Source of the DNA: Octopus sinensis
Lineage: Eukaryota
Assembly: GCF_006345805.1 (NCBI RefSeq)
Contig: NC_043009.1
Coordinates: forward strand, 4,836,001 to 4,900,000
Direction of reading: 5' to 3'
Length of the DNA stretch: 64,000 nt
Shown here: piece by piece, positions 12,301-59,344 of the stretch
How positions within the stretch are numbered: position 1 is the first letter of the stretch
How the letters are laid out: every line of letters begins with the position of its first letter
Notes under the pieces: model-generated
What the model saw: the letters and a program-made list of their open reading frames with translations, nothing else
The model's database searches: none
What the model was told of the DNA's origin: nothing
Position numbers and translations under genes: made by a program

Positions 12301-13688
12301 CTTGCAATGTATAAAGTAAATTTACAACAGTTGTCGTCATTAACTTTTTTTATCATTTCACTGTTAAATCTTTTTGGGGTAACATTTATAAGTTATCATC
12401 CATGTGAAGTGATACTTCTCTTGTCACTTCGGTGGGTGCTAGGCATAACAACTACTTAAAAAGGAACGGCGCTATCCAAAAAAAGAAAAAAAAAGTAGAC
12501 AGGTTAAGGACCACTGGCCTACATTATTCTTAACATAGTAGTGTCATCATTCATCTCCAGGAAGCTCTAAGAGTGGAAAACTCTAATCAAAAGCAATATG
12601 GTCCGAGCTGATATTATACAAAGTCTGTCTTTTCATATAACAATTAGTCCAAAGGTATCTTGTTACTCTTTCTAGCAAATTGTGGTGTAAAATTACAAAG
12701 TAAATCATAATAAATTTATGCATCCTATTTCCAGTCGTTATTTTTTTTTTCTTTGTTTATTTCGTTTTTTTTTCTTTTACATTTCTTTCTCGCAATTTGT
12801 GTATTGGCATGGTGCCATTTTATTTAAACCAAGACAGTTAATTGTGCTCGCAGACTATTGCGTTTAAATTTTACTCATCTAATTTAGAAGTATATTTCCG
12901 AAGAGCAATGGTTATTGACATGAATGCCATCGGCAAATGTTCGTTAATATATTAAACGAAGATTTTTAATTAACTTGTAAAACGAAAATAAAAAAAGAAA
13001 AGCAAAAAAGAACAAACGATAAATAAAAAAGCTTTAAAAACCTAAAATAATTTCAACAATTATTAGACATAAAAAATATATGTGTGTATACAAAAAAAAA
13101 TGTGACATGTAACAAATATCTAATTCCGACTTTTTGTGGTATAAACTGCTTTTGAAGAAATAATTACACCTAAATTAGTTGGTGAAATATTTCAATCTAA
13201 TGGTCAAAACGATAACATCTTCCATCAAATCATATTAGTTTTTCTTGATAAAAGATATTTATCTATTTGTATAATTTCAGCCAAAAACATTTGAGCAGCA
13301 ATTGAATGTAACTAAACAAAGATAATGATAAGATTTTTTAAATATTTATTATTCATTTGCATATTTGTTATTTTTTTTACAATTTATGTATTTGTTTATG
13401 TTAGAATTTAATTAAATCCGACTAAATGAAGATGAAGTTTTTATTTTCATTTCTGTTTCATCATTCTTCAATCATAGACAACTTAGAGTTTTCTATTAGC
13501 TATTTGACCCTATTTCAAAATTCCAATCAATTTCAGTAACTGAGTTGTTTCCCATGCATTTGAGAAGAATTGTCATTAACACATATGATTTTTTTTCTTT
13601 TTCTTTACTACGGATCCAATATACATCTGCAGGGAACGAAACTGTACTGCAGCCACTTTGATTAGTTATCAGAAAAAAGCTATATTTC

Positions 13689-13765
<77 letters not shown>

Positions 13766-14242
13766 TGTGTGTGTATGTATGTACGTGTATCTTCCGGTGG
13801 GATTTCGTGATAGAACCGATTGATATTTCGTACACCCGCTGTTTACCTATTTCAAATGAATATGTAATATGTCAAAGTGGAACAGTTTATGCAATAGAAC
13901 GGTGTCCTGTTAAGTGGAAAATTTGTCTGTCATTCCATTGAAATCATTAAACGAAGAATATTCAACATTTGCATAAAGAAAACACTTGGGAGTTGTGAAG
14001 ACACTGGTATGTCGTCACATTTGTTAGAGATTCACATAAGCTGACGAGAAATAACAAGCAAGTACGAAATTGTGTAAATATCTTGTGGGTGCATTGTTTT
14101 GTTGACAATGGGAGCAACCAACTGAAAGATAAAAAAACGACAGCAAATTGGTGTAAGTATGAAACACAAGGCTGCTGGAAACATAGCGTTTCTTGTTTAG
14201 CTTAATTTACGGCAAAATGAAAGAAAAAAATTTACAAAAAAC

Positions 14243-26744: not shown

Positions 26745-27594
26745 TTTATATGTATATATATATATATATGTATGTATATATATATATATATATATACATA
26801 TATATAAATCGTTCGTTGGTGGTGTTTCAATTTATTTCTCAGAAATGGTAATTATAGAAGATAAAATTTAAAACAAAGGAAGAGGACAGCTGAACTCATT
26901 TCGCAAACAGCTGCCTCATTCACATTGAATCTTATCGCGCCGCTCATTCAATATCGTCTCAATCTAACTAACGGTGTTGTGTGTTTGAATATATTGTTTT
27001 ATAATGCTAATTGGAAATTGTAATTGGAATAATTCTACTTACTTCCAACCTTATTGAGATCGTACTCTATCTCAGCCATTTGCTAATGACGCTCGATGAC
27101 ATTAAATATTTATACTAATAAGTACATAATTAAGACGGACTTAATTTATATATACTGTAAAGATTATGATCAAACTTTAGGCGCATTAAAATGAGATGTG
27201 AGATTTGCTGTTTTTCTTATTTGTTTCCGTATAAAGTCATATCGAACGCATGGCTCCGTGGTTAAGCATTTCTTTTTGTAATCGGCTTCAATGCAACAGA
27301 GAACCTATTTTCGCAAGTGTCAATGACAGATTGTGTAATCTATTTACCCTGTGTGGAAATGCAGATACATACATACGTATGCACCACACACACAGAGACA
27401 CAGACACGCACACACACATACACGTTCACACAAGCACAAACACGTTCATGAATTTGCGCAGCAAGATTCCTGATGTGAAACCGTGTGTTGGAACAAATAT
27501 TATTGTATTTCGGGATGGTCACTGTTTTTTTCCAAAATAAACATACGCCCTGTATATACGTTATACACTTGTTTATTTTTGTTCGTATTCTAAA

Positions 27595-29305: not shown

Positions 29306-29497
29306 CAATGCCCGGCGCTGAAGGACCTTGCCTCGCTTGTCAGTCATTAACATGGTGTTTAACGTGGCTATGAGCTGCTTTGACTGTTATTCCTAGCAAT
29401 ATGTACGCTGACTAATGCACTTATACGCTTTAGAGACGTATATATGTTTGCATTTCGTTTGAAAAATTACTAACAAACCACTCTTAGTATTGATATA

Positions 29498-29535
<38 letters not shown>

Positions 29536-29538
<3 letters not shown>

Positions 29539-29977
29539 ACGTATATTTGCCAACTCAATATGGCTACCCCTAAGGGTGGATGCTACTGTAGTTTTTAGCC
29601 CCAGGAGGACACACTCCTCCAGCTGGCCATCGACACACTTTCTGTGTCCTGTCAGTATTTGCAAAGGGAAGTCATCCTTCCCGTCTTCAACTTATGATAC
29701 ACACGGACTCGAGTTTCGAGGTATTGACCTCTCGTCAGCGTGTGACAATCATAGTTGTCGGCGAGAATTAGATTTCCTTCACAAATACTTATACTTTTTC
29801 CAGCGTCCACTGTCGCTGATATTGAAAAAGTGAAATCAAACAATGATAAATATCAAAGTGAGTTATATACAGTAGCGGTAACACAACGTGACGTATATTT
29901 GCCATCTCAATATGGCTACCCCTAAGGGTGGATGCTACTGTAGTTTTTAGCCCCAGGAGGACACACTCCTCCAGCTG

Positions 29978-29982
<5 letters not shown>
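29536..29982 (-). mobile_element. Retrozyme/pseudo-LTR-like element (family H3): 352-bp unit plus 95-bp terminal direct repeat
   Basis: 29536-29630 repeats almost exactly at 29888-29982; (TA)n on both sides; contains an intact HHR. Confidence 0.75.
29700..29744 (-). ncRNA. Canonical minimal type I hammerhead ribozyme
   Basis: CACACG-CTGACGA-GAGGT-caat-ACCTC-GAAA-C-TCGA-G-TC|CGTGTG. Perfect stems I and II, intact core, palindromic ACTCGAGT stem III, GUC site (cut between 29706 and 29705). Confidence 0.9.
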
Positions 29983-30018
<36 letters not shown>

Positions 30019-37566: not shown

Positions 37567-38172
37567 AAACATCGTGCAAAGTATGTAAGTAGCGATCGTG
37601 ATACCCACCACGAAGAAATGATCAACTCAATAACGATCTGTTAAGCAACAGCTACCCCCAAAACCATACTATCCACTCCAATTATGAAGGAGAGAGAGGA
37701 TGAGGCAAAAAACTGTCCAGTCTGTCTACGATTTGTGAAAGGCCTCTTCGAAAATATACAAAAGTTATGCGGCCCATATGACATCAGGATAGTATTCAAG
37801 AGTAATACGACACTTCGCAAATATCTCCTTCGAGTAAAACCACCAATAGAAGAGAACATGACCAAAGTCTGCGTTTACTCCATTCCGTGCAGCTTTGGTA
37901 GGTTATACAAAGGTGAAACATGCCGCCCCCTCAAAATAAGGGTAGACGAACATCGCATAGCTGTAACGCGAGGAGATATTGATAAATCGGGAATAGCTGA
38001 TCATGTATGAAAAAATGGATGAAGTTAAAATAATTGACGGAGAACACCACTGGAAAATACGAAAACTAAAAGAAGCAGCACATATACTAGGACACAGCAA
38101 CCTCCTAAGCAGACCGAGTGCAGATATGAGCAGCAAATGGGAACCGGTATTAGAAAGGATAGAAAAATATTA
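37567..38172 (+). pseudogene. Penelope-like element: RT thumb plus GIY-YIG endonuclease remnant
   Basis: CVYSIPCSFGRLYKGETCRPLKIRVDEH...KSGIADHV and KIRKLKEAAHI match the PLE GIY-YIG consensus; frameshifts and stops present. Confidence 0.85.
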
Positions 38173-38194
38173 GATTTATGAGCTCTAAAATTCA

Positions 38195-38265
38195 CTCCAT
38201 AACAGTAGTTAAGAGCGCGGGCTACTAAGCCCAAGATTCCGAGTTCGATTCCAAGCACTGACCTG
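38195..38265 (+). promoter_or_regulatory. tRNA-derived segment with Pol III A/B-box-like motifs in the PLE 3' region
   Basis: GTAGTTAAGAGC-GC-GGGC-TACTAA-GCCC-AAGATTCC-GAGTTCGATTCC. Confidence 0.45.
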
Positions 38266-38442
38266 AACAACAACAGCACCAACAACAACAACACCACCAC
38301 CATCACCACCACCACCAACAACAACAACAACATCAACAACACCAACAACAACACCACCACCATCACCATAATAATAATAGTAAGAAGAATAATGATAATA
38401 ATAATAACAATAACAATAATAATAATAATAATAATTATAGTA

Positions 38443-38485
<43 letters not shown>

Positions 38486-38492
38486 TAATAAC
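38266..38492. repeat. (CAA/CAC)n-(TAA)n microsatellite
   Basis: Direct reading. Confidence 0.9.
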
Positions 38493-38540
38493 ATCGAAAA
38501 ATACCATAAGAATGAGAAGCCAGGTTCGAAATTTCCCGAA

Positions 38541-42110: not shown

Positions 42111-42550
42111 TACGGCGGCGAGCGAGCTGGCAGAGTCGTTAGCACGCCGGACGAAATGCTTAGCGGTATTTCGTCTGCCGTTACGTTCTGAATTCAAGTT
42201 CCGTCGAGGTCGACTTTGCTTTTTCATCCTTCAGGGTCGATAAATTAAGTACCAGTTACGCACTGGGGTCGATATAATCGACTTAATCCGTTTGTCTGTC
42301 CTTGTTTGTTCTCTCTGTGTTTAGCCCCTTGTGGGTAGTAAAGAAATAGAAATTAGTATATCGTCTGTCTTTAAATTCTGAGTTCAAATTCCGCCGAGAT
42401 CGACTTTGCCTTTCATTCTTTCGGGCTTGATAAATTAAGTAACAGTTACTCACTACGCACTGGGGTCGATGTAATCGACTTAATCCCTTTGTCTGTCCTT
42501 GTTTGTGTCCTCTATGTTTAGCCCCTTGTGGGCAATAAAGAAATAGAAAT
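42111..42550 (+). mobile_element. SINE family B with internally duplicated body (dimer)
   Basis: Core at ~42170-42350 and again at ~42360-42548; one 12-bp TSD GTTTTGAAATAG (42099 and 42551). Confidence 0.9.
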
Positions 42551-45649: not shown

Positions 45650-46043
45650 TCTTTATATATAAAAGTAAGGTTGTGTGTCTGTCTCCTACGATTTAGATTC
45701 CTAACTACTCCCACATTTTGCGGTGCAGTTTAACCAAAACCGGGTATCTTATAGTCGTGATTCATATCGAGCCCTTCTGGGTATTAGCGCGCGTCTACGA
45801 TGAGTCTACGATTTAAAAAAAAATTACCATCATTTTTTCCATTTTAATGCATTTTTCGCTATTATATAAGGGAAGTAACTCTCTAAAAATGTCTACGATG
45901 TGTCAACGATTTTAAAAAAAAATTACCATAATTTTTTTTCCATTTTTAATGCATTTTTTGCTATCTTTTGGCTATAACTCTCTAAAAATGATTATATAGT
46001 TATTTCCCTTACAAACCCGAGCAACGCCGGGCGATACTGCTAG
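45650..46043 (+). mobile_element. Non-autonomous Helitron
   Basis: A|TC...CCCGAGCAACGCCGGG hairpin-CGATACTG-CTAG|T: 5' TC, 3' CTAG, AT target, no TSD; internal ~90-bp duplication (GTCTACGATG...AACTCTCTAAAAATG). Confidence 0.85.
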
Positions 46044-48834: not shown

Positions 48835-49043
48835 CAGTAGTTTTATTTTTATAGCGTGCTTTCACTTCACTACCGAGCGCAGCTCTGTGTGCCTTGGGTA
48901 TGTGCTGTGATTTGTTGTGATGCTCTGATGGTTATTGTACGGAAAGTGTTCTGCGTAGGATGTGTGCAGTGCCTAGTAGTGCAATTTTCTGTATGTTATA
49001 AGTGTTTGTAAGTCCTGGTGTTTTTGTTATGTATTTGTCTGAA

Positions 49044-49127
<84 letters not shown>

Positions 49128-49560
49128 GCACATGTTTATACCATTTGTCAGTTTTTATGTTGTAGTGTTGGCATATTGTCCAGTAGATATAACTACTCAC
49201 TCGGTCGTGCCTGCGTATATATTCAGATTTGACAAGGACCGGACAGCCAGAGATGATGTGGTCAACTGTCTCATTCCACTCGTTGCACATTCTGCACTTG
49301 GTGTTTGGGTCTATTTTGATTATTTTACTTCTATAGTCGTTCGTAGTCAGGTATTGGTCTTTGGCCACGAGAGAATCAGTCCCTCCGTTTCAACTCTTAG
49401 TCTAGAGCTGTTAATCCATTGTTGGCTTTCACTTAGGATTAGTTCTTCCCTGTCAGGCCTTGCAAGGTATTAGCAATCGACTGATTTTCTCACCGTTTCT
49501 TCTTTAAATATGTTTTGTAATTCTGTTTTCATGTTACTTTTTTGCCTCTGCCCATTTCTG
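48835..49560 (-). mobile_element. R4/Dong LINE 3' end
   Basis: CRMCNEWNETVDHIISGC (CCHC) and YIRRHDRV; C-terminus QKIALLGTAHILRRTL, then a short 3' UTR ending in (TAA)n. Confidence 0.85.
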
Positions 49561-57329: not shown

Positions 57330-58965
57330 AGAGTAAGTGGGAGTGAGTGGTCCAGAGAAGAAAACAGGATAGTGATGCAGTGCTTCTTAGAAAATGAACC
57401 TAAAAGAAGGAGCTATAGGAAACGGATGTTAAAATTTTGGTTAGAGAAGGGGATGTTTAAAGTGACTGAACAGAGATTAGTTGATCAAGCTGACGCTATT
57501 AGGAGGAGAAAGTGGATGAGAGAACTGGAAGTAGAAGGGATCATAAGAGAACTGGAAAAGAAAGACAAACAACATAAGAGATACAGCTCAAACCAAAGAA
57601 GAATCTAAAGGAAAACATAATAATAGCTCTACCAATAATGAACGGAGCAACGACTTGAATGATTTAAGTGAGGAAGATCAGAAGATTTTAGATGAGTTGC
57701 AGAAAGTAATGAGTATAGAAGCAAGGAAAAGATTGACAGCATTAAAATGCACCAACAGAAGGAAGCTGCTAGAAATGACGAGAGAAGTAGATTCTGTTAT
57801 CGGTAGGATAGATACAAAAAATATAGGAGACACTGACTTATTTATATATGTAGGAGGGGTAGTAGTCACTAGATGATTAGGTATCTCATAGGGAAAGATT
57901 AAAAATGAGCAAATGTGGAAAAGGAGACTAGAAAATAAAGTGAAGACTTTCAGGCAAAATCTGAGTAGAATAGAAATCTGGAAACTGAACAAATTAGAAA
58001 ATACAAGATGAAAATCTTCCCCTCAGAAAAGATACTTAGTCAAAGAGAAAGGATTTGGGACAGTAATAGAAGAGCGTGTGATAGCAGTAGCAGGTAAGCT
58101 GTCCAGATATCAGAAAAGAATATATCAGTATAGATTATTTGAGACAGACTAGAGATTTTATAACCAAATAAATAGTGGAGAACGAAGAACTGAAGATGTG
58201 AAGCCTATTGCAGAAGAAACTAGAAAGGTTTGGAGTAACATTTGGGATAACCAGTCAATCATAATCGAGATGTAGTATGGTTAAAGTAAGTGAAGAAGTA
58301 GTGAATGAGAAGCAACCAGATCTAAGATTAGTGCATTAATGAGTATAGTGTTGGGAAAAATGCCGAATTGGAGGGTCCAGTACCATATATTGTTCATGGG
58401 TACTGGTTAAAGAAATTTAATAGTTTATATGAGAGGCCAAAGGAACAACTTCAGGATTGCCTTAATGGATGCATAGAGGGAGGAAAATACACCTTATGAA
58501 AGACACAACAAGGCTAATACAGCTAGCAAGTATGGTCCAATCGCTTGCTTACCATTAGTTTAGAGGCTGTAACATTAACAGGAATGCTTTCAGAAAGTAT
58601 TTACAATCACCTTGAGAACCAGAATTTATTGCCAGAAGAGCAGATAAGGTTGTAGGAAGACGGCTAGAGGCACGCATGATCTATTATGCACAGACAAAGC
58701 TGTTCTAACTAAAGGAAAAACTAGAAAGAAAAATCAACACTAGCATGGTTAGATTATAAGACAGCCTATGACATGATCCCACACTCATGGATAAGTGAGT
58801 GTTTAAGTATATTCAGTATAGCAGACAAAATAAGAAAATTAATTAACTTCAGCATGGAAATATGGAAAGGTGACACACTCTTAGGGAAAGTTAATATCAA
58901 GAAAGGAATTTTCCAAGGGGATTCGTTATCCCCTTTAATATTTATCTTATGTTTTATCCCACCCA
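57330..58965 (+). pseudogene. R4/Dong LINE ORF remnant (N-terminus plus RT)
   Basis: WSREENRIVMQCF..SYRKRML..TEQRLVDQ; LAWLDYKTAYDMIPHSWI; KGIFQGDSLSPLIF; many frameshifts. Confidence 0.9.
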
Positions 58966-59344
58966 CGTCTAGTTTAGTGAGATAATGACTCACTCCAATT
59001 TTCTCCTTGTGCTTACATTTTTTTCTTACTTTATCCATGTTTACCCGGTTGTCGCTTCCCAGCAAAAACCAAGGAAGACAATTTGCAGCAGAACTTATTA
59101 AATAGCAGGAAAATAGCTTGAATATATATTGTTGTTGGTAAACGAAAAAAAACAACAACAATTGGACGTTTTTCGTTGCCCAGTTTAGCCAAGAAAGTAT
59201 TCGTTTGCTGACAAGAAAGAGTTAGGACTTTCATACATTGGAAATTTCGCTATCAATAGCGACTACTAAAAGAAGAAAAAAATGTAATGCAATGTATCAA
59301 CCAAAAAGTTCTCAGAGCGTGACAAAGCAAGCATGCTGTAGTAT

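What the first reader, a model, noticed from the sequence alone, without database searches (positions are those of the whole stretch)
29700..29744. Textbook minimal hammerhead, the best candidate for an active ribozyme
Seen: all core nucleotides intact (CUGACGA, GAAA, GUC), 6-bp stem I, 5-bp stem II, and a 2-bp stem III capped by palindromic UCGA. Established: this architecture favours dimeric cleavage in PLE and retrozyme HHRs. Inference: it could cut any minus-strand host transcript that spans it.
Basis: partly seen in the sequence, partly recalled or inferred. Interest (0 to 1): 0.7.

Follow-up and report, generated by a model that had tools for sequence, protein, structure and literature searches.

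The report
Young hammerhead retrozyme copied Penelope-style
This is a well-formed, likely self-cutting hammerhead RNA motif, but it is one of at least 587 identical copies carried by a small non-coding repeat that sits in TA microsatellites with the end pattern of Penelope-type retrotransposons, whose enzymes likely copy it.

Summary
The hammerhead is real, at exactly these coordinates, and the only one my descriptor finds in the window. It is not 'minimal' and not special. It is a canonical type I motif with an extended helix I, and the genome holds 587 exact copies. It lies in a 445-nt insert, one 352-nt unit plus 93 nt, in a TA tract: a non-LTR retrozyme. Insertions end at two fixed sites about 47 nt apart. 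Back-to-back insertions use one site per arm in 53 of 54 classifiable cases, which is the Penelope 'tail' signature. Copying reads through the cut site in 91 of 98 cases, fitting a circular or uncut template. This copy has one ribozyme, so it cannot release a monomer, and no spanning host gene was found. No autonomous partner with a matching repeat was found. A 5.3-kb LINE inserts site-specifically just upstream of the ribozyme. The scan noted this family before on other DNA of this genome (e1-8807173). Cleavage itself is untested.

The parts
29536..29980 (-). Whole insertion, 445 nt = 1.26 units of a non-LTR retrozyme, 5'-truncated, single arm
   Evidence: self-match; family
29629..29980 (-). 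One full 352-nt repeat unit (unit positions q1-q352, q1 = 29980), 43% GC, no Pfam hit in the overlapping frames scanned
29536..29628 (-). Terminal repeat of q1-93; its 3' end is the short (tail-less) fixed end, inferred RT start site
29700..29744 (-).
29688..29758 (-). Full ribozyme with extended helix I, internal loop with unpaired U1.7 (29699) and loop 2 UCAAUA (29727-29722)
29705..29706 (-). Predicted cleavage site, after GUC (q275/q276)
   Evidence: sequence; coordinates; cleavage untested
29864..29941 (-). Predicted four-way RNA junction (q40-117); the short fixed end falls in the loop of its third hairpin
29839..29888 (-). 'Tail' interval q93/94 to q139/142 between the two fixed 3' ends of the family (internal in this copy)
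29745..29764 (-). Target site (q217-236) duplicated by a site-specific LINE in other copies; empty here
29493..29535 (.). (TA)n tract at the 3' end of the insert
29981..30017 (.). (TA)n tract at the 5' end of the insert

Best explanation
The motif is a canonical type I hammerhead carried by a young, non-coding 352-nt repeat (a non-LTR retrozyme) that is likely copied in trans by a Penelope-like reverse transcriptase/GIY-YIG endonuclease. Shown: sequence, copy number, fixed 3' ends, one end type per arm, TA targets, read-through of the cut site. Inferred cycle: tandem copies are transcribed; the hammerheads would cut out unit-length RNA that a host ligase would close into a circle; a PLE protein would bind a folded region around q40-142, nick both strands of a TA tract, and start reverse transcription inside the RNA at q139-142 on one strand and q93/94 on the other; each arm runs a variable distance, often past the ribozyme and round more than one unit. 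The window copy is a very recent single-arm product with one ribozyme: it could cut a transcript once but cannot release a monomer. I put the retrozyme/PLE assignment at 0.8 and, within it, a circular rather than an uncut linear multimer template at about 0.5.
For: 587 exact 45-mers, 1215 exact 3'-end 16-mers, backwards controls 0. Units at 352-nt spacing on many contigs, mostly 97-100% identical. 3' ends at q93/94 or q139-143 with scattered 5' ends. Back-to-back loci: first set 37 pairs, 31 mixed, 1 short/short, 0 long/long, 5 unclassifiable (p 7e-9 for 31 of 32); second set 28 pairs, 22 mixed, 6 unclassifiable, none alike. 75 of 97 arms end in TA. PLE tail on one end only, tandem/inverted insertions and microsatellite bias: 10.1101/2021.04.23.441226 (passages). 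Internal RT start at two sites bounding the tail, both strands cut and extended, ribozyme mutants still inserted: PMC11167929 (parts 1-2 of 4). 91 of 98 anchors read through the cut site. Divergence within an arm 1.1%, between opposite arms 1.0%, between loci 2.1%. A rare variant is fixed in every covering unit in 10 of 55 young multi-copy sites and in both arms in 5 of 30. Unit folds as a circle at -114.3 against -84.5 +/- 4.6 kcal/mol in 60 shuffles. The youngest subfamily has the best core: U4 in 144 of 144 and G10.1 in 144 of 144 segments, against 18 and 10 of 43 in the more diverged ones. Intact RT + GIY-YIG frames of 781 and 775 aa exist in the genome; copies of the first family are 97-99% alike and TA-flanked.
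Against: No PLE whose terminal repeat resembles the unit was found in 50 GIY-YIG loci, 30 Poseidon-type loci and 5 extended loci (only 150 of 5029 and 150 of 2642 candidates were scored). The nearest-neighbour model does not favour the active fold: -8.8 against -26.7 kcal/mol for the 90-mer, helix II 0.3, helix III 0.0 (tertiary contacts are not modelled). Most rare variants are singletons (158) or partly shared (15) rather than fixed (14), so local duplication, later mutation or assembly error also act. 5' ends are somewhat in excess just 3' of the cut site (16 in q277-296 against 6 in q257-276, p 0.026, windows chosen after looking), and both arms of locus L097 stop exactly at q276, which points to some linear cut templates, though stalling in helix I explains the excess as well. 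The antisense circle also folds well (-105.9). No cleavage or circular RNA was observed.
Confidence: 0.8

Rival explanations
1. Same element and same PLE partner, but the template is an uncut or partly cut linear multimer transcribed from tandem arrays; the ribozyme only trims 5' ends or is dispensable, and arrays are homogenised by local DNA duplication.
For: PMC11167929 found unprocessed RNA to be the main substrate and ribozyme mutants to insert normally. Excess of 5' ends at q277-296 after a full unit, 11 against 0 in the list. Partly shared variants in adjacent units. Read-through and both-arm sharing fit either template.
Against: Variants fixed in 3-7 units, some across both inverted arms (L013, L030, L059, L212; L186 7 of 7 units), need a monomer step or prior homogenisation. 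No sharp pile-up at q276: 3 ends in q274-278 against 1.5 expected. Related invertebrate retrozymes are mostly circular in vivo (PMC7229834, results part 1 and discussion).
Confidence: 0.4
2. The unit is the orphan terminal repeat (pLTR) of an autonomous PLE not yet found, and the copies are 5'-truncated PLE insertions.
For: All end features are those of PLEs. 10.64898/2026.07.22.740005 finds Xenopus retrozymes homologous to pLTRs. Two loci join a PLE frame directly to the repeat (L177, L213).
Against: Arms run up to 8 units with no frame between them. The PLE pieces beside copies belong to several families and mostly lie across a TA tract. The PLE families whose 3' ends I read carry hammerheads of other shape or none, and no similarity to the unit.
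Confidence: 0.12
3. One reading: a stand-alone minimal ribozyme whose role is to cut a minus-strand host transcript at this locus.
For: Core intact; any sense transcript through it could in principle be cut.
Against: One of at least 587 identical copies in a very young repeat; not of the minimal class; no host exon found in 149 of 205 frames (short exons would be missed).
Confidence: 0.05
4. The repeat is mobilised by the L1/Tx1-like LINE that is found joined to it.
For: 13 places share the same LINE-repeat junction.
Against: The LINE sits inside the unit with a 20-bp target duplication in 4 of 6 extended loci, is 94-98% alike across hosts that differ by 1-15% from the window unit, and so is a later guest. 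Repeat ends have no poly(A) and show the two-site tail.
Confidence: 0.04

Closest known systems
Metazoan non-LTR retrozymes (PMC7229834; mussel Mytilus repeats of about 350-390 bp, coral 220-240 bp, axolotl 330/350 bp)
   Same: Canonical type I hammerhead in a 352-nt, 43% GC, non-coding unit in tandem; stable circular fold predicted; older subfamilies have a mismatch at the base of helix II like axolotl HHR_Amex2.
   Different: Here most copies are short dispersed insertions with two fixed 3' ends, back-to-back arms and TA targets; the words 'tail' and 'inverted' do not occur in the main text of that paper. Expression and circles not shown here.
PLE-derived retrozymes (bioRxiv 10.64898/2026.07.22.740005)
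   Same: Co-occurrence with intact PLEs; proposed trans-mobilisation.
   Different: That study infers the link from co-occurrence and pLTR homology and proposes local amplification; here the link comes from insertion ends, while pLTR homology was not found. By its rule (two consecutive intact ribozymes) this copy is a monomer, not an active retrozyme.
Penelope-like elements, EN+ (Poseidon PAc, PMC11167929; Neptune, Naiad and non-autonomous Chlamys/MRC1, 10.1101/2021.04.23.441226)
   Same: Tail on one end, two internal RT start sites, inverted 5'-truncated arm, AT/TA targets, start site in a stem-loop; non-autonomous Chlamys also give head-to-tail multimers.
   Different: No RT or endonuclease frame; canonical rather than minimal ribozyme; tail 45-49 nt against the 30-40 bp described.
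Schistosoma-type extended hammerhead (Rfam RF00163)
   Same: Full-length match; loop 2 of six bases ending in A and an unpaired U at position 1.7, the pair described for the S. mansoni structure (PMC11875169, passages).
   Different: Score 32.2 is below the gathering score of 34; the contact is inferred from sequence.

Membership tests
Canonical type I hammerhead (PMC4209133) | Conserved core CUGANGA / GAAA / NUH | tested here: met
Canonical type I hammerhead (PMC4209133) | Helix I 6 bp, helix II 4 bp, helix III 1-2 bp with palindromic loop | tested here: met
   93.3% of 638 cells paired over 29 distinct rows, 4 pairs with two-sided change; the G10.1-C11.1 pair holds only in the young subfamily
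Canonical type I hammerhead (PMC4209133) | Loop 1-loop 2 tertiary contact | tested here: inconclusive
   U1.7 and terminal loop-2 A are conserved (42 of 43 older segments each); contact itself not testable
Canonical type I hammerhead (PMC4209133) | Self-cleavage after NUH | not testable with these tools
   only indirect: both arms of L097 stop at q276
Minimal PLE hammerhead, min-HHR (PMC4209133) | Helix II 7-8 bp, helix I 4-5 bp with ill-defined loop 1, extra unpaired base 5' of helix II | tested here: not met
Minimal PLE hammerhead, min-HHR (PMC4209133) | Located in the pLTR of an RT-encoding PLE | tested here: not met
   insert bounded by TA tracts, no frame
Non-LTR retrozyme (PMC7229834) | Type I hammerhead in tandem repeats of 150-450 bp, GC under 50% | tested here: met
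   352 nt, 43% GC, arrays up to 8 units
Non-LTR retrozyme (PMC7229834) | Non-coding, non-autonomous | tested here: met
   no Pfam hit in the 4 scanned frames that overlap the insert; no PLE protein match in the window insert
Non-LTR retrozyme (PMC7229834) | Expressed as linear and circular unit-length RNA | not testable with these tools
   only contigs of runs not on record as RNA were available
Non-LTR retrozyme (PMC7229834) | Target-site duplication longer than 4 bp when present | tested here: inconclusive
   targets are TA tracts, so a duplication cannot be read
'Active' retrozyme copy (10.64898/2026.07.22.740005) | [quoted passage not shown] | tested here: not met
   this copy has one; other loci of the family meet it
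Autonomous EN+ Penelope-like element | RT + GIY-YIG frame | tested here: not met
Autonomous EN+ Penelope-like element | Tail on one end, tandem/inverted arms, microsatellite target | tested here: met

The most novel reading that the evidence does not exclude
These insertions are direct genomic footprints of rolling-circle reverse transcription of a ribozyme-made 352-nt RNA circle by a dimeric Penelope-type enzyme. A conserved four-way RNA junction, not sequence homology to any pLTR, would be the recognition signal that places the two start sites, one per DNA strand. A Tx1/L1-like LINE has in turn specialised on this repeat, inserting 20 bp ahead of the ribozyme so that the flanking hammerheads would cut its transcript at both ends: a three-level parasite system (PLE, retrozyme, LINE).
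Probability: 0.3. Interest if true: 0.8.

Novelty: new member of a known kind. Interest (0 to 1): 0.5.

Why it matters
The ribozyme at this place is ordinary. The family matters because how animal retrozymes are inserted has been proposed but not shown (PMC7229834 discussion; 10.64898/2026.07.22.740005 says the mechanism remains to be elucidated). A currently spreading family with exact start sites, a candidate recognition structure, a known target and intact PLE frames in the same genome gives a ready in vitro test with the published PAc assay. It would also show whether a PLE protein can copy an RNA circle round and round, and the site-specific LINE adds a case of a retrotransposon aimed at a ribozyme repeat.

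Tried and rejected
Expression: no RNA holder listed. Contigs of 4 runs guessed to be RNA cover most of the unit and some bridge the cut site, but they may be DNA and include related families, so the depth step near the cut site was not used. A read-based look for a spliced host transcript across the site was not obtained, so that question rests alone. Whole-window Rfam rows are microsatellite matches to miRNA models, all under gathering score. No tRNA gene and no Pol III A/B box in the unit, so not a tRNA SINE. Autonomous partner by homology: none; an apparent likeness between the unit and the L131-family 3' end scored 50 against a shuffle mean 40.5, sd 6.2, maximum 65.5. Copies of the repeat near PLE frames in L138, L127, L228, L068 are separate insertions in TA tracts or elsewhere. 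L181-L183 share both flanks and are duplicates of one site. A pile-up of 5' ends exactly at the cut site was looked for and not established; the anchor hides ends in q282-298. RNAalifold gave no consensus for q35-136 on an alignment with gapped rows; my first pair count was mis-registered and was redone. Rows dropped: overlapping loci of one site (9 of 70 and 6 of 30; 170 loci to 139 sites), three loci with whole-insert duplications, one duplicate anchor. Not in print as far as searched: and text look-ups; subscription papers, repeat databases and the closed supplements of the 2026 preprint could hold this family.

Full report
Observation. My descriptor finds it once in 64 kb and never, at equal stem lengths, in 100 shuffles. 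Rfam aligns it over the full Hammerhead_1 model at 32.2 bits against a gathering score of 34. Helix I extends past the given coordinates through a UGU/U loop into about ten more pairs; the 91-mer folds at z -2.84.

Class of ribozyme. PMC4209133 (part 1 of 4 read) defines canonical metazoan type I motifs as helix I 6 bp, helix II 4 bp and a 1-2 bp helix III with a palindromic loop, and minimal ones as longer helix II, shorter helix I and an extra unpaired base. This motif is canonical. It has an unpaired U at 1.7 and a loop 2 ending in A, the pair described for the Schistosoma structure (PMC11875169, passages). On 33 copies (29 distinct) 93.3% of cells pair and 4 of 22 pairs show two-sided change; the covariation score beats 500 of 500 shuffles, which related sequences can do without structure. 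The young subfamily has U4 and G10.1 in 144 of 144 segments; more diverged copies mostly have U4C (24 of 43) and a mismatch at the base of helix II. Against monomer activity, the thermodynamic model prefers another fold (-26.7 against -8.8 kcal/mol) and gives helix III probability 0.0, while two palindromes pair at -10.7. PMC7229834 (abstract passage, results part 1 of 3, discussion, passages) reports efficient monomer cleavage for invertebrate motifs; the 2026 preprint (parts 1-3 of 5) saw cleavage in only 1 of 9 predicted Xenopus dimers. Activity is therefore likely but untested.

Context. The motif lies in a 445-nt insert, 29980-29536, made of a 352-nt unit and a repeat of its first 93 nt, between two TA tracts. 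The genome G000 (2.72 Gb) holds 587 exact copies of the 45-mer, 1215 of a 3'-end 16-mer and 1341 of an 18-mer beside the cut site, backwards controls 0. The window unit differs from the commonest young type by one base, so the insertion is very recent. The host is probably an octopus-like cephalopod; this is my inference from genome size and microsatellite load and was not tested.

Insertion anatomy. I read 61 loci taken in genome order. 3' ends fall at q93/94 or q139-143; 5' ends scatter; 75 of 97 arms end in TA. Of 37 back-to-back pairs, 31 join one short and one long end, 1 two short, none two long, 5 could not be classed. A second set gave 22 mixed, 6 unclassed, none alike among 28. Copies only 70-80% alike keep this pattern (L127, L228). 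[quoted passage not shown] The short site lies in a hairpin loop of a predicted four-way junction at q40-117, which has 93.9% of 776 cells paired and 8 of 25 pairs with two-sided change, 9 cells in all; I drew the structure from the window copy, so this support is moderate.

Template. 91 of 98 anchored passes read through the cut site, so most templates were uncut or religated. Units of one insertion are half as divergent as units of different loci, also across inverted arms. A rare variant is fixed in all covering units in 10 of 55 young multi-copy sites and in both arms in 5 of 30, but 158 variants are singletons and 15 partly shared. The unit folds well as a circle (z -6.5, 60 shuffles). 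Some signs point to linear cut RNA: both arms of L097 stop at q276 with short re-copied pieces of the 5' end between them, and ends are in excess at q277-296 (16 against 6, post hoc); stalling in helix I explains the excess equally. I leave circle against linear multimer near even.

Partner. GIY-YIG and Poseidon-type searches scored 150 of 5029 and 150 of 2642 candidates. Intact RT + GIY-YIG frames exist, one family is 97-99% alike, TA-flanked and tailed. None of 85 loci has a terminal repeat like the unit. The PLE 3' ends that I read carry minimal-type hammerheads of another shape (U3-A8 type or without helix III, read by eye) or none. Two loci join a PLE frame directly to the repeat (L177, L213): template switching or a later deletion across a TA tract, undecided. 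The clade names Neptune and Poseidon are from my recall of the protein motifs, not from a call.

Host effect. A Pfam scan of 149 of 205 stop-free frames found only transposon domains and two sub-threshold hits. Nothing supports a minus-strand host transcript. This copy has one ribozyme, so it lacks a cis partner for a dimer and cannot release a monomer.

Guest element. After reading note e1-8807173 I tested its claim of a second retrotransposon. A LINE 3' end joins q217 at 13 places, 9 independent sites among the 12 read, with LINE copies 94-98% alike and hosts 85-99% like the window unit. In 4 of 6 extended loci both junctions are seen, with a 20-bp duplication of q217-236 and inserts of 5.3, 5.3, 5.1 and 3.3 kb; 2 of 6 show no upstream repeat within 8.5 kb. 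Its last frame has zf-RVT; the Tx1/L1 label is recalled.

Verdict. A real, canonical hammerhead in a new member of the non-LTR retrozymes. The single motif is ordinary. The family's insertion ends tie retrozyme spread to PLE-type priming, which I did not find stated for retrozymes in searches or look-ups, and make it testable. The same family was noted earlier by this scan elsewhere in this genome. Interest 0.5.

Noticed in passing
L259, L268, L271-L273 (G000:C7:88479500-88488400 and others); target = window 29745-29764: A young 5.3-kb LINE with zf-RVT inserts at one site of the repeat with a 20-bp duplication that rebuilds helix I downstream; 13 junctions in the genome. Its 5' end matches a loose end seen in run X1.
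   Followed up: partly
L097:2614-3035: Both arms stop exactly at the predicted cut site (q276), with short re-copied pieces of q278-292 between them: possible footprint of a cleaved linear template.
   Followed up: partly
L177:245-2017 and L213:1-2787 (L251, L253): PLE frame joined to the repeat without a TA tract; template switch or later deletion.
   Followed up: partly
window 37645-38500 +: Decayed Poseidon-type PLE 3' fragment; its family (75-83% aa identity, 150 scored copies) carries a tRNA-like stretch and a minimal hammerhead without helix III in its 3' repeat, read by eye.
   Followed up: partly
L131:674-5460 and relatives: Young PLE family with a 479-aa first frame (no Pfam hit) ahead of a 781-aa RT + GIY-YIG frame, TA-flanked, with a U3-A8 type minimal hammerhead near its end and a tail of about 35 nt.
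   Followed up: partly
L127:45-416, L228:490-890, L011:1992-2146, L070:5055-5174: Older related repeat families at 67-80% identity; L127 and L228 keep the short/long arm pairing.
   Followed up: partly
window 58725-58982 + and 49030-49389 -: LINE fragments (RVT_1, zf-RVT).
   Followed up: no
window 13499-13846 - and 27235-27537 +: Sub-threshold Pfam hits (DUF6652 E 8e-4; LOC400499 E 1e-3), possibly chance.
   Followed up: no
window 42166-42550 and 45793-45990: Two-copy tandem repeats of 197 and 99 nt.
   Followed up: no
   Followed up: no
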